Below are positions 57,309 through 62,382 of a stretch of DNA of 64,000 nucleotides, piece after piece. The stretch spans positions 1,408,947 through 1,472,946 of the forward strand of contig CBDDKV010000002.1 in NCBI GenBank assembly GCA_965230395.1, in the 5' to 3' direction. This DNA comes from Bacteroidales bacterium. GTDB taxonomy: Bacteria > Bacteroidota > Bacteroidia > Bacteroidales > UBA10428. The notes under the pieces were generated by a model. The model made no database searches and had not been told where the DNA came from. It saw only the letters and a program-made list of their open reading frames with translations. The stretch's first letter is position 1. The number at the start of each line of letters is the position of its first letter. The translations under genes and the position numbers were made by a program.

Positions 57309-57400
57309 GGAGAGGTGGGTGAGTGGCTGAAACCACATGTTTGCTAAACATGCGTACTGGGAAACTGGTACCGGGGGTTCGAATCCCCCTCTCTCCGCCA
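57309..57400 (+). tRNA. tRNA-Ser (anticodon GCU), CCA encoded
   Basis: Acceptor GGAGAGG/TCTCTCC (one G-U pair). Anticodon stem CATGT/ACATG with loop TTGCTAA. Long variable arm (GCGTACTGGGAAACTGGTACC). T-arm GGGGG-TTCGAAT-CCCCC. Discriminator G plus CCA. Confidence 0.92.
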
Positions 57401-57422
57401 AAAGAAATAGCATTTCGAAGGA

Positions 57423-57462
57423 AAACCCCGCAAGTAAACAACTTGCGGGGTTTTTGCTTTTT
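57423..57462 (+). terminator. rho-independent terminator after tRNA-Ser
   Basis: AAACCCCGCAAGT-aaaca-ACTTGCGGGGTTT followed by TTGCTTTTT. Confidence 0.85.
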
Positions 57463-57588
57463 GGTGCCAACGCGAAAAAATGCAGGTTATAGGTGGAGTT
57501 TTGGTGGACTTGTTTTTTTGAAGAATTATATGCAGAAAGGGGTAGATATGAAGGATATATCCTCTATTACTTTAATTTTTTTATGAAT

Positions 57589-60500: not shown

Positions 60501-61137
60501 TAGCGGAAACTACCGTTTTTGCTTTAATAATACAGGTTGAGTGATGAGTATTAAATCCATCAATCTGAAAATCGTTCAGTTCATAATCCGTTACTTTTTT
60601 GAAGAAAGTGTTGCTGCTTTCCAAATACTCTTCCCATGATTCAATATTAAAAAGTGCAGCATCTAATGATTGATCAACCTTGGTAATGGAACTTATAACA
60701 GGGAAATAGTTCGTGTCGAAACAAACGGGTTCTAAAACACTTCTTACAAACCAAGGCAACCTTACTTGTTCCGGATCTACTATTATGCTTCCTTGTTCTG
60801 TAATTTTTGCAGATAACCAGAAAGGATATACTTTTTGTATATTCGTATTCTTTACTGCATGCTCATGTTTTGCAGATAGATAAAATGGGGTAAGAAATAT
60901 GTCAATCGGATACTTTTCTTCATCCTCTTCTTCTTTTATGTTTTTACTTGTCTTTTCAGATTTACGTTGACTCTCATATAATTTTTTATAAATCGTACTT
61001 AATTCTTCACTTTGAAGCTTAAAAATATTTCCAAGTTTAAAGCCATTATCACATTCCTTTGCAGGTATGTCCATTCGTTCTCCATCAGCAACACTATTTC
61101 GGTAATATTTTATTAGGTTCTTAAAATTTGATGCCAT
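57589..61137 (-). CDS. SF1 (Upf1/DNA2-like) helicase fused to a C-terminal HKD/PLD-family nuclease; type II Mokosh (MkoC)-like defence protein
   Basis: Walker A LAVNGPPGTGKTT (about 60249-60275). Motif II LLIVDEAGQV. Motifs V/VI TVHALQGAEREIILFS and NVAITRAKKHFIVIGN. An exact HKD signature H-N-K-TIAI-D-DKFLIE-GS-F-N lies near the C-terminus (about 57741-57770). Probable start at the ATG at 61137 (MASNFKNLIKYYRNS), 10 nt after the stop of the upstream gene. Confidence 0.85.
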   Translation of the reverse strand: MASNFKNLIKYYRNSVADGERMDIPAKECDNGFKLGNIFKLQSEELSTIYKKLYESQRKSEKTSKNIKEEEDEEKYPIDIFLTPFYLSAKHEHAVKNTNIQKVYPFWLSAKITEQGSIIVDPEQVRLPWFVRSVLEPVCFDTNYFPVISSITKVDQSLDAALFNIESWEEYLESSNTFFKKVTDYELNDFQIDGFNTHHSTCIIKAKTVVSAKGIIRLYDDIINDDFEKNLIQKFTTLNTISGKEIPEKEYLFTDISHYGQYNNRFSLSTSQRISLCLFEREQQGETLAVNGPPGTGKTTLLQSIVANEIVKAVGNQDSPPLILAASTNNQAITNILDNFGTEGGVIDRWLPNLTSLGMYMISSDKNKQKQALKKGYQLLTRDNDFFDGHYFHHFHRLDIDELKEYYINKFQQTSDSNLSNIKDIVYDLAEQVQSIKNFIKYVFKLLGHTKEIQAKYFAFDLIPDKRGQMENLTNKIEEKETAKRNIFDTRNKLETFIASNKLLYFFSFIPFFRKRFSAKLQLNMLEVSLDRIDFSSSITNIRTQIIELVRLNKEALESLANDSSKQRKAFDEVTKAENQWKALTSKLDMHWKEYLSSLSENSQKIVNDEYRVVGEIEQLNRILDVSYRHKAFILSIHFWEGKYIQYIENADIKISKGQASKEEQFKLMSFLTPLFISTFHSAPNYASHWNKTSDKWIQKPIYELFDLLIVDEAGQVAPEIGTASFALAKKALVVGDIYQIEPVWNIPYLKVDEGNLRKYNVLDNNNLKDIKEKGILCSSGNLMRLAQNTSGYFTNDQLKGSLLTEHRRCVDELVQFSNAYVYNNLLEPKIGSFSGKKYGDKQQLFLPPLAYLHVNGISEQKSGSNFNVLEATTITQWILLFGNSILATINADKKPEEQKKLKDVIAIVTPFTEQKNEINRQFLKNKVSTDITVGTVHALQGAEREIILFSPVYGKNHNGSLFFDMGFNMLNVAITRAKKHFIVIGNMSLFDISKKSKPSGALASYLFASPENELSGSFLYNSPLIKSDNRISTLNKHIKALRQSFVSAKKRLIICSPFIRINAINSDNLTKHIRDAINRNVKITILTDKFLDTFKGILKEESEKGRNALLKAGAKLEIKKGIHNKTIAIDDKFLIEGSFNWLSAIRDEAHPFYRYDASQIIQGEEAKIQINQLIDELKIKI

Positions 61138-61147
61138 AACTCTGTTT

Positions 61148-62382
61148 TTATTCTTCCGCACTTTCACCATACCCCAGTTCTAATGCCTGAGCAGGTTGTA
61201 TTGTATTTCCGGCAATACCTTTAACGGGACCATATATATCGATGGTGTTGGTTATCACTTTCTCAATTTGTTTTTCTCTTTGCTTCCAGATGCGTTGCAT
61301 ACTTCGCTTTTTACTTTCAAGGTCAGATTTCATTTGCGAAAAGCCTCCAACAATTGCCTCAACCTGCATCTTAAAAATACTGCTTGTGAGATAATCGTAT
61401 AGCATATGCATTTTGACACCTTTATTCTCCTGGGAAGAAACCGATTGGCTGATTTGTATTATTGATTCACGTAACACAGCACATAAGCCTTTAAACTCTT
61501 TGTAGGTGCATATCCAGATTCCATCTTTTTGCCCCATTCTTTCAAAGTTGGTGGGTAACACCTCAGTTACCAAGACTCCAATGTCAGCACCTTTGTCGCG
61601 AATGTCTGCATTAAACTTCTCAATCCAACTTGGCTGAAAGTCTTTGGTTTGTTTACTTTCGAAATAAATTGTACCACAATTTTGGATGCAGTCTCCACCT
61701 TTTGCTCCCTTCTTAATTTCTTCTACTGTATCAGGAGGGAAATTAGTCATTAACCAATCTTTGATAGCCAGTTCCTGAATTTCACCCCGTATTTGCATTG
61801 AGCCTTGTTCCTGCTTTCGTTTCATTTCTTCAGTAAGCTTTTTTGGTCTTCTAACTGCTTTTGAAGCTCTTTCATGGCTAACTCGTTCTTTTCCTCCTCC
61901 TGTTTCCGGATTTTATCTTTTTCTTCGGTTAGCTTTTGGTTGAGTACTTTTTGAGATTCTGCTTCAATTGCTTCTTTTAATTCGCTCTTTTCACGTTTCA
62001 GCTTCTCTATTTCGGCCTTGCTTTTATTCAATTCTTTAATCTGTTCCGATTTTTCGTTTATTTCTTTTTGGAGAGCATTGAATTGTTCGGGTTGCTTATC
62101 TTGAAGTTTGGTTTTTAGCTTTTCTTCAAATGCTTTCTTTTCTTCTTTTATTTGTTTCTCAAATCGTTCCTGGAACAACTCGTTTTCTTTTTTTTTCTTT
62201 TGCTCAAACTCTTCTTTTGCCTTGTTTAAGGATTCAAACTCACTTTCATATTTCTTTTTCTCTTCTGCCAGTTGAGATTGGTACTTTTGCTTGATTTCTT
62301 CTTCCAGTTGGAGCGCCAATATATCCTGAACATCTATCGATGTCCCACAATTAGGACACTTTATCTTTGTTTGATTATCCAT
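61148..62382 (-). pseudogene. DUF2130-like protein (zinc ribbon + long coiled coil + PD-(D/E)xK-like nuclease core), split by a frameshift in an A6 run
   Basis: ORF 61822..62382 has IKCPNCGTSI plus an E/K-rich coiled coil. ORF 61148..61825 has KRKQEQGSMQIRGE...GGDCIQN..GTIYFESKQTK...KMHMLYDYLTS..F..QVEAIV. Together these give the DUF2130 layout as I recall it. The two overlap as ATGA. Adding one A to the A6 run (plus-strand T6 at 61839-61844) fuses them as ...LEDQKKLTEEMKRKQEQGS. Confidence 0.7.

What the first reader, a model, noticed from the sequence alone, without database searches (positions are those of the whole stretch)
57309..62382. tRNA-Ser-adjacent defence operon: DUF2130-like nuclease gene coupled to a helicase-HKD nuclease fusion (type II Mokosh-like)
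The gene content switches immediately after tRNA-Ser and its terminator. A 1183-aa protein combines a complete SF1 Upf1/DNA2-like helicase motif set with an exact single HKD phospholipase-D-type nuclease signature at its C-terminus. That is the layout reported for single-gene (type II) Mokosh. Its start lies 10 nt after the stop of a DUF2130-like gene. That gene encodes a zinc ribbon, a coiled coil of about 170 aa, and a D...ExK nuclease-like core (GGDCIQN..IYFESKQTK). I do not know of a described defence system that pairs these two genes. The tight spacing suggests one operon. The DUF2130-like protein could be a sensor or second effector. No integrase is visible inside the window.
Basis: partly seen in the sequence, partly recalled or inferred. 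Interest (0 to 1): 0.7.

Follow-up and report, generated by a model that had tools for sequence, protein, structure and literature searches.

The report
Mokosh defence gene beside dead neighbour
Next to a tRNA gene this Bacteroidales genome carries an ordinary, intact single-gene type II Mokosh anti-phage system; the nuclease-like DUF2130 gene just upstream is a decayed, unrelated neighbour, not its partner.

Summary
tRNA-Ser(GCT) lies at 57309-57400, followed by a strong terminator. On the minus strand, a 1182-aa SF1 helicase-PLD fusion (57589-61137) starts 10 nt after a frameshifted DUF2130 gene (61148-62382).

The fusion matches the PADLOC MkoC profile end to end (E 3.5e-300). Its Walker A, DEAGQ and HxK(x4)D motifs are intact. 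It is a type II Mokosh gene.

The proposed two-gene system is not supported:
- None of 83 DUF2130 loci carries a MkoC-like gene, and none of 87 MkoC loci carries DUF2130 or a remnant of it.
- The nearest relatives of each gene have other neighbours.
- DNA homology to those relatives breaks inside the 10-nt spacer.
- Tight spacing to unrelated upstream genes is common for mkoC (15 of 64 loci).

The DUF2130 copy is a pseudogene. It has an A7-to-A6 frameshift, a 24-nt deletion between the catalytic Asp and the ExK motif, and 11 private changes at otherwise invariant positions. Its replacement rate is raised (31 versus 6, p=4e-5).

The region is a low-GC variable island that begins at the tRNA. 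It also holds an IS1595 element and the 3' end of a Gabija gajB gene with a premature stop. This is a known kind of system, and interest is low.

The parts
57309..57400 (+). tRNA-Ser (anticodon GCT). It marks the left edge of the variable island.
   Evidence: ARAGORN. FloA-tRNA-Ser synteny is conserved in the closest Bacteroidales genomes.
57421..57465 (+). Intrinsic terminator hairpin plus T-run, lying between the tRNA and the 3' end of the convergent mkoC gene.
   Evidence: 15-pair stem with 7 GC pairs, followed by a T-run. The sequence is shown.
57589..61137 (-). mkoC, an intact type II Mokosh gene of 1182 aa. It encodes an N-terminal SF1B Upf1-like helicase fused to a C-terminal single-HKD PLD nuclease.
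   Evidence: PADLOC MkoC E 3.5e-300 over profile positions 1-1133 of 1136. Pfam AAA_11, AAA_12 and PLDc_2. Nearest solved relatives by sequence are Sen1, IGHMBP2, Upf1 and DNA2. All residues invariant in a 15-sequence alignment are kept.
60241..60264 (-). Walker A motif GPPGTGKT (MkoC residues 292-299).
   Evidence: Motif search. Invariant in alignment A1.
58990..59004 (-). Helicase motif II / Walker B, DEAGQ (MkoC residues 712-716).
57745..57768 (-). PLD active-site motif HxK(x4)D, HNKTIAID (MkoC residues 1124-1131). It is the only HKD motif in the protein.
61138..61147 (-). 10-nt spacer between the DUF2130 stop and the mkoC start. It is the junction of two independent homology modules.
   Evidence: Sequence. 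blastn: the DUF2130 module matches L005/L006 over window 62386..61145, and the mkoC module matches L001 over 61132..57613.
61148..62382 (-). DUF2130 (PF09903, COG4487) pseudogene. The family layout is an N-terminal CxxC hairpin, a helix of about 170 aa, and a PD-(D/E)xK-type core. Here it is split into ORFs 62382..61822 and 61825..61148.
   Evidence: Pfam 210.8 bits. Intact homologues are 411-471 aa. 11 private changes at otherwise invariant columns. Relative-rate test 31 versus 6 replacements, p=4e-5.
61839..61844 (-). Frameshift site: an A6 run on the coding strand. Intact homologues code DQKKLTEE here, and one of them (L139) has an A7 run. Adding one A restores a 411-codon ORF.
61684..61685 (-). 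Junction of a 24-nt in-frame deletion inside the nuclease core, between GGDCI (catalytic Asp) and QNCG..ESK (ExK).
   Evidence: All 78 non-redundant homologues keep the 8 residues. Alignment A2.
62489..63412 (+). IS1595-family (ISXO2-like) DDE transposase gene. It sits in the 1.06-kb gap between gajB and the DUF2130 gene.
   Evidence: Pfam DDE_Tnp_IS1595 and Zn_ribbon_IS1595. NCBIfam transpos_IS1595 at 210.8 bits. It is a single copy in the window, and the element's ends could not be defined.
63444..64000 (-). 3' part of gajB, the Gabija UvrD-like helicase gene. The gene continues beyond the window. It has an in-frame premature TGA at 63552-63554, inside motif VI.
   Evidence: PADLOC GajB 2.5e-48 for the ORF. 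Reading through the TGA extends the match to profile positions 488-668 of 669 and raises the score from 163 to 221 bits.

Best explanation
The region is the tRNA-proximal end of a variable, low-GC defence island in an uncultured Bacteroidales genome.

On the minus strand, reading towards the tRNA, the order is:
1. The end of a Gabija gajB gene, with a premature stop.
2. An IS1595 element, on the + strand.
3. A DUF2130 pseudogene.
4. An intact mkoC gene.
5. The terminator and tRNA-Ser.

The only intact defence gene seen is mkoC, a stand-alone type II Mokosh system.

Mechanism, taken from the family literature and not shown here: one polypeptide uses its ATP-dependent SF1B Upf1-like helicase to engage a phage nucleic acid, proposed to be phage RNA or RNA/DNA replication intermediates. 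Its C-terminal PLD (HKD) nuclease is the effector. In tested type II Mokosh homologues defence needs both the ATP site and the HKD site, and no partner protein is needed.

The DUF2130 gene is an unrelated cassette that came to lie upstream and has since decayed. It may still be co-transcribed with mkoC. That is an inference from the 10-nt spacer and the absence of a terminator between them. It is not a sensor or second effector of Mokosh.
For: MkoC identity:
- Full-length PADLOC MkoC match.
- Helicase and PLD domains.
- Motifs intact.
- Upf1/Sen1/IGHMBP2/DNA2 are the nearest solved relatives by sequence.

Single-gene sufficiency in the family:
- Millman et al. describe type II Mokosh as one gene. 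Mutations in the ATP site or the PLD site abolish defence (bioRxiv 10.1101/2022.05.11.491447).
- Mass photometry of E. coli Mokosh II was consistent with a monomeric model (bioRxiv 10.1101/2025.07.10.664194).

No partnership:
- No co-occurrence in 83 DUF2130 loci or 87 MkoC loci, including remnant searches.
- The nearest MkoC relatives (77% and 66% identity) have an unknown 266-aa gene or AbiEii upstream.
- The nearest DUF2130 relatives (88% and 83%) lie elsewhere.
- The homology modules break in the spacer.
- DUF2130 neighbours are heterogeneous: 87 Pfam families upstream and 92 downstream, with the commonest in only 6 of 78 loci.

Decay of the DUF2130 copy:
- Frameshift.
- 8-aa core deletion, absent from all 78 homologues.
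- 11 private changes at invariant columns, against at most 3 for any other sequence.
- 31 versus 6 lineage-specific replacements, with similar synonymous change (56 versus 45).

Assembly quality: 69 homopolymer runs of 6 or more bases lie in 34.3 kb of nine long intact ORFs in the same window without a frameshift.

Island:
- GC drop.
- Synteny with L225 and L226 ends at the tRNA.
- In L226 chemotaxis genes follow the tRNA instead.
Against: - No expression or phenotype data exist for this locus.
- No terminator or recognisable promoter separates the two genes. Co-transcription, and therefore some regulatory coupling, cannot be excluded.
- The surveys sampled about 170 loci, mostly from Bacteroidota, not the whole of sequence space.
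- The frameshift lies in a homopolymer and on its own could be an assembly error.
- The right border of the island and the rest of Gabija lie outside the window.
Confidence: 0.85

Rival explanations
1. One reading: DUF2130 and the helicase-PLD protein form a new two-gene defence system transcribed as one operon. DUF2130 acts as a sensor or second nuclease effector.
For: - 10-nt spacing, same strand, and no terminator between the genes.
- Both genes have nuclease-type domains.
- DUF2130 genes do sometimes lie in defence islands, for example next to LmuB, HerA or PDC-S05 genes.
Against: - No co-occurrence in 170 loci, in either direction, including remnant searches.
- The nearest relatives of each gene are unlinked.
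- The homology modules are independent.
- The DUF2130 copy is inactivated in three ways.
- Type II Mokosh works as a single gene.
- mkoC is tightly spaced to many unrelated upstream genes.
Confidence: 0.03
2. The DUF2130 gene is functional and independent. The A6 frameshift is an assembly error or a slippage or phase-variable site, and the gene is a separate solo nuclease that happens to sit next to Mokosh.
For: - The frameshift is a single-base change in a homopolymer.
- The rest of the ORF is open and scores 210.8 bits against Pfam DUF2130.
Against: - The 24-nt deletion between the catalytic Asp and ExK, and the substitutions at invariant positions (R228K, Y241F, R245Q and others), are not homopolymer errors.
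- The replacement rate is raised about 5-fold while the synonymous rate is similar.
- 69 other homopolymer runs in long ORFs of the window carry no frameshift.
- A6 is short for a phase-variation tract (background knowledge).
Confidence: 0.08
3. The split DUF2130 gene yields two working polypeptides: a coiled-coil piece and a nuclease piece. They would be translationally coupled through the ATGA overlap at 61822-61825 and might modulate MkoC.
For: The 3' ORF starts at the conserved Met187, and its ATG overlaps the 5' ORF's TGA.
Against: - All 81 homologous genes that were fully contained in their loci are single ORFs of 411-471 aa.
- The nuclease piece carries the core deletion and mutated invariant residues.
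- The overlap is a by-product of the frameshift hitting a conserved Met codon.
Confidence: 0.03

Closest known systems
Type II Mokosh (MkoC), Millman et al. 2022
   Same: - A single polypeptide of about 1150-1200 aa with an N-terminal Upf1-like SF1 helicase and a C-terminal PLD nuclease.
- Full-length profile match.
- Intact Walker A, motif II and HxK(x4)D.
- Located in a defence island.
   Different: - Only 77% identity or less to any protein in the 5.8-billion-protein set, and 33-49% to named genome copies.
- The host is an uncultured Bacteroidales bacterium.
- Phage specificity is unknown. The tested E. coli type II system protected only against one ssDNA phage in one panel.
Type I Mokosh (MkoA + MkoB)
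   Same: The same helicase and PLD families. There are partial matches to the MkoA profiles (E 5e-33) and the MkoB profile (E 8.5e-14).
   Different: Type I splits the helicase (with a Ser/Thr kinase domain) and the PLD nuclease into two genes. Here they are fused, no kinase domain is present, and the upstream gene is not MkoA or MkoB.
DUF2130 / COG4487 family (PF09903), PD-(D/E)xK superfamily, function unknown
   Same: - Strong Pfam match.
- Same layout of CxxC hairpin, long helix and nuclease-type core.
- Classified as PD-(D/E)xK by Steczkiewicz et al. 2012 (PMC3424549).
   Different: The window copy is frameshifted, lacks 8 core residues and has lost otherwise invariant residues. Family members are stand-alone genes with no fixed neighbour and match no PADLOC model beyond coiled-coil noise.
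Two-gene nuclease-helicase defence systems (Hachiman HamAB, Gabija GajAB)
   Same: On paper, a PD-(D/E)xK-type nuclease gene directly upstream of a large SF1 helicase gene resembles these pairs.
   Different: Those pairs co-occur consistently and form complexes. DUF2130 and MkoC never co-occur elsewhere, and MkoC already carries its own nuclease.

Membership tests
Type II Mokosh (MkoC) | One ORF with an N-terminal SF1/Upf1-like (COG1112-type) helicase and a C-terminal PLD nuclease | tested here: met
   Pfam hits, in the numbering of the 1193-aa ORF from the upstream ATG: AAA_11 at 294-485, AAA_12 at 809-999, PLDc_2 at 1055-1153. Sen1, IGHMBP2, Upf1 and DNA2 are the best PDB sequence relatives.
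Type II Mokosh (MkoC) | Full-length similarity to the MkoC profile | tested here: met
   PADLOC PDLC03924 MkoC, E 3.5e-300, 997 bits, profile positions 1-1133 of 1136.
Type II Mokosh (MkoC) | Intact ATP-binding site (Walker A) and helicase motif II, required for defence in tested homologues | tested here: met
   GPPGTGKT at 292-299 and DEAGQ at 712-716. Both are invariant in alignment A1.
Type II Mokosh (MkoC) | Intact PLD HxK(x4)D active site, required for defence in tested homologues | tested here: met
   HNKTIAID at 1124-1131, followed by GSFN.
Type II Mokosh (MkoC) | Protects cells against phage | not testable with these tools
   Needs a plaque assay.
Type I Mokosh | Separate MkoA (helicase plus Ser/Thr kinase) and MkoB (PLD) genes | tested here: not met
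   The domains are fused, there is no kinase domain, and only partial MkoA and MkoB matches are found.
Proposed DUF2130 + MkoC two-gene system | Conserved adjacency of the two genes in other genomes | tested here: not met
   None of 83 DUF2130 loci and none of 87 MkoC loci show it, by HMM on ORFs and by tblastn. The nearest relatives are unlinked.
Proposed DUF2130 + MkoC two-gene system | Both genes intact | tested here: not met
   The DUF2130 gene has a frameshift, a 24-nt core deletion, and relaxed selection.
DUF2130 (PF09903) | Match to the family profile above its gathering score | tested here: met
   210.8 bits against a cutoff of 26.7 for the 3' ORF.
DUF2130 (PF09903) | Uninterrupted ORF of about 410-470 aa with family-standard spacing between the conserved GGD Asp and the ExK motif | tested here: not met
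   The gene is split at the A6 run. 8 residues are missing that all 78 homologues keep.
tRNA-linked integrative island | Synteny and composition break at the tRNA | tested here: met
tRNA-linked integrative island | Integrase gene and a direct repeat of the tRNA 3' end at the far border | tested here: inconclusive
   No integrase and no tRNA-derived repeat occur within 57401-64000. The island runs past the window end, and the source contig could not be retrieved.
Gabija | GajB helicase together with GajA | tested here: inconclusive
   The GajB C-terminal part matches but has a premature TGA. GajA, if present, lies beyond position 64000.

The most novel reading that the evidence does not exclude
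The pairing itself is not novel. The DUF2130 family, however, might be an uncharacterised stand-alone nuclease module that acts against mobile elements or in DNA-damage control. Its layout is a CxxC hairpin, a 170-aa helix and a PD-(D/E)xK core. It is kept at a median of 77% pairwise amino-acid identity across several classes of Bacteroidota, and it repeatedly lands in defence islands (next to Lamassu, HerA-type, PDC-S05 and here Mokosh/Gabija genes). The window would then show a recently inactivated copy.
Probability: 0.2. Interest if true: 0.45.

Novelty: new member of a known kind. Interest (0 to 1): 0.15.

Why it matters
This adds a divergent Bacteroidales example of type II Mokosh, 77% identical or less to anything in the protein set searched.

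It also shows a defence island in decay: of the three defence-type genes visible, two are inactivated and an IS element sits between them.

It is a useful caution. Tight spacing of two nuclease-type or helicase-type genes in a defence island is not evidence of a system. Here a co-occurrence survey and module-boundary mapping dissolve the apparent operon.

No open question becomes newly testable.

Tried and rejected
1. The first genome scan with the full MkoC alignment picked the generic Walker A pattern and returned mostly unrelated helicases. A scan with the N-terminal region failed because no conserved stretch was found. The C-terminal PLD region worked.
2. Retrieving the window's own contig beyond 64000 through the exact MkoC protein failed: the protein is not on record. 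The right border of the island and gajA therefore remain unseen.
3. No direct repeat of the tRNA 3' end was found within the window.
4. The IS1595 ends could not be defined. There is no second copy and no convincing terminal inverted repeats.
5. Promoter scans were uninformative. Sigma-70-like sites occur at chance level. The Bacteroidota TTTG...TAnnTTTG motif has no match in the island, and TAnnTTTG alone has no match upstream of either gene.
6. The AlphaFold2 model of the intact homologue P0121 was of low confidence (pLDDT 64.8, pTM 0.26). I used only its secondary structure and ran no fold search.
7. A profile search against PDB sequences found no solved relative of DUF2130.
8. I tested whether the unknown genes next to the tRNA in L225 and next to mkoC in L001 are related. 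They are not, and neither matches a PADLOC model.
9. PHROGs and phage-genome searches show that DUF2130 is essentially absent from phages. The only hits are 7 Helicobacter heilmannii records, each covering 54% of the query.
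Full report
**What is there**

ARAGORN finds one tRNA in the window, tRNA-Ser(GCT) at 57309-57400 on the + strand. A 15-bp-stem terminator follows at 57421-57455.

Everything in the finding is encoded on the minus strand and converges on this terminator:
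- A 1182-aa ORF runs 61137..57589. The ORF listing extends it to an upstream ATG at 61170. The ATG at 61137 matches the database protein P0001 at 100% identity and the start of the PADLOC profile.
- The TAA stop of a DUF2130 gene (62382..61148) lies ten nucleotides upstream of it.
- That gene is split into a 186-aa ORF and a 225-aa ORF.

GC falls from 0.37-0.47 in the core genes at 53000-57250 to 0.30-0.36 across mkoC.

**The helicase-PLD fusion is type II Mokosh**

- Domains: Pfam gives AAA_11, AAA_12 (Upf1/DNA2-type SF1 helicase) and PLDc_2.
- Profile: the PADLOC MkoC profile matches end to end, positions 1-1133 of 1136, at E 3.5e-300. The type I components MkoA and MkoB match only in part.
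- Motifs: Walker A GPPGTGKT (residues 292-299), motif II DEAGQ (712-716) and the single HxK(x4)D motif HNKTIAID (1124-1131) are intact. Every residue invariant in a 15-sequence alignment is kept.
- Structure relatives: the nearest solved relatives by sequence are Sen1, IGHMBP2, Upf1 and DNA2.
- Literature: Millman et al. describe type II Mokosh as a single gene whose defence is abolished by ATP-site or PLD-site mutations. They propose that it recognises phage RNA or RNA/DNA replication intermediates. A 2025 preprint reports that mass photometry of E. coli Mokosh II was consistent with a monomeric model, and that it protected against only one ssDNA phage in that panel.

**The DUF2130 gene is a pseudogene**

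The 3' ORF scores 210.8 bits against PF09903. The family is classed in the PD-(D/E)xK superfamily with unknown function (PMC3424549). Four lines of evidence show decay.

1. Frameshift. Adding one A to the A6 run at 61839-61844 restores a 411-codon frame that aligns over its whole length with homologues of 411-471 aa. One homologue, L139, has A7 at this spot.
2. Core deletion. The copy lacks 8 residues (24 nt; junction at 61684/61685) between the GGD Asp and the ESK (ExK) motif. All 78 non-redundant homologues have them.
3. Private substitutions. It has 11 private substitutions at columns where all 78 others agree: E96K, L108I, V202I, E208K, R228K, Y241F, R245Q, E358K, M383I, S386P and A394T. 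No other sequence has more than 3.
4. Relaxed selection. In a three-taxon relative-rate test against its nearest homologue (L005, with L004 as outgroup), the window lineage has 31 unique amino-acid changes against 6 (chi-square 16.9, p=4e-5). Unique synonymous changes are similar, 56 against 45 (p=0.27).

The assembly handles homopolymers well. Nine long ORFs of the window, 34.3 kb in total and including one of 12.6 kb, contain 69 runs of 6 or more bases without a frameshift.

**The pairing is not conserved**

- Nearest MkoC relatives: P0002 (77% identity) has an unknown 266-aa gene upstream and CBASS genes nearby. P0003 (66%) has AbiEii upstream.
- Nearest DUF2130 relatives: P0121 (88%) and P0122 (83%) have other downstream genes. 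P0122 lies directly after a gene that matches the Lamassu LmuB profile over its full length.
- DUF2130 survey: in 80 genome loci found with the DUF2130 alignment plus 3 metagenome loci (up to 8 kb of flank on each side), no ORF matched the MkoC HMM.
- MkoC survey: in 87 MkoC loci (at least 6.8 kb upstream wherever the contig allowed), no ORF matched the DUF2130 HMM.
- Remnants: tblastn found no remnants in either direction.
- DUF2130 neighbours: they are heterogeneous, with 87 Pfam families among 78 upstream genes and 92 among 77 downstream genes. The commonest family occurs 6 times. Some are defence genes (LmuB, HerA, PDC-S05). Others are housekeeping genes.
- Module boundaries: blastn places homology to the DUF2130 locus L005 at window 62386..61145, and homology to the MkoC locus L001 at 61132..57613. 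The break falls in the 10-nt spacer.
- Spacing: tight spacing is common for mkoC. In 15 of 64 full-length loci a same-strand upstream gene lies within 30 nt or overlaps. Ten of these genes were scanned and fall into at least 6 unrelated Pfam families: HTH_3, DUF6933, HsdS, DUF5715, DUF7281 and an SF1 helicase.

**Context**

The window comes from an uncultured Bacteroidales genome. FloA is 89% identical to those of two Bacteroidales MAGs. Both MAGs are colinear with window 47270-57120 and share the FloA-tRNA-Ser arrangement. Nothing after the tRNA matches. In L226 chemotaxis genes follow the tRNA, and in L225 an unknown gene and a resolvase follow it. The region is therefore a lineage-specific insertion at or beside the tRNA.

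Beyond the finding's coordinates lie two more elements:
- An IS1595-family transposase gene at 62489-63412 on the + strand.
- The 3' part of gajB at 63444-64000 on the minus strand. Its in-frame TGA at 63552-63554 cuts helicase motif VI. Reading through it extends the GajB profile match to position 668 of 669 and adds 58 bits.

No integrase gene and no repeat of the tRNA 3' end occur up to position 64000.

**Verdict**

The Mokosh assignment is right and can be made precise. The novel two-gene defence system is not supported. mkoC is a self-sufficient known system, and the DUF2130 gene is a decayed bystander in a partly degraded defence island. Whether mkoC is transcribed through the pseudogene is not known. 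No terminator or recognisable promoter separates them.

Noticed in passing
window 63444-64000 (minus strand): This is the C-terminal part of a Gabija gajB gene. It has an in-frame premature TGA at 63552-63554 inside helicase motif VI (..LFYVAC*RAF..). Reading through it restores the profile match to position 668 of 669. The gene's 5' part, and gajA if present, lie beyond the window.
   Followed up: partly
window 62489-63412 (+ strand): An IS1595-family (ISXO2-like) transposase gene fills the gap between gajB and the DUF2130 gene. It ends 32 nt from gajB's natural stop and starts about 106 nt from the DUF2130 start. It is the only copy in the window, and the element's ends are not definable.
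   Followed up: partly
loci L065-L144 and proteins P0121-P0240: The DUF2130 family is unusually conserved. Median pairwise amino-acid identity is 77% among 78 non-redundant genome copies from several Bacteroidota classes, plus one record labelled Glaciecola. This includes the K/E-rich 170-aa helix. Yet the family has no fixed gene neighbour. Within genera, such as Roseivirga and Fluviicola, the upstream gene has the same size, strand and spacing, which suggests a stable position.
   Followed up: partly
DUF2130 N-terminus (window 62382..62320, and homologues): Only one CxxC (C9, C12) is conserved, so this is half a zinc site. Placed at the end of a long helix, it could act like an intermolecular zinc hook of the Rad50 type. 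This is speculation only.
   Followed up: no
L160, L163, L169; L173, L180, L183: Some mkoC genes have recurrent, tightly spaced or overlapping upstream genes of unknown function: DUF6933 (about 176 aa, overlap of 8 nt or gap of 1 nt; L169 is inferred from size and spacing only) and DUF5715 (222-246 aa, gaps of 21-30 nt; L183 likewise inferred). These could be lineage synteny or real accessory genes.
   Followed up: partly
L004 / L065, 1649-9263: In the genome with the second-closest DUF2130 homologue, the gene lies 14 nt after a gene matching the Lamassu LmuB profile over its full length (E 3e-249). That gene is preceded by Lactamase_B, Trypsin-CTD4 and MComp1 genes. This adjacency with LmuB-type genes is seen in only 4-5 of 78 loci.
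   Followed up: partly
L228, L243, L272, L293: In several related genomes tRNA-Ser(GCT) is followed within 12-540 nt by tRNA-Pro(TGG). No tRNA-Pro is present in the window up to position 64000. The island may therefore lie between the two tRNA genes.
   Followed up: no
window 9222-21782 (minus strand) and 28566-32303 (minus strand): The first is an intact 4185-aa ORF with PA14, Laminin_G_3, CarboxypepD_reg and Big_5 domains, a giant surface protein. The second is a 1244-aa PKD protein with a type IX secretion C-terminal sorting tail.
   Followed up: no
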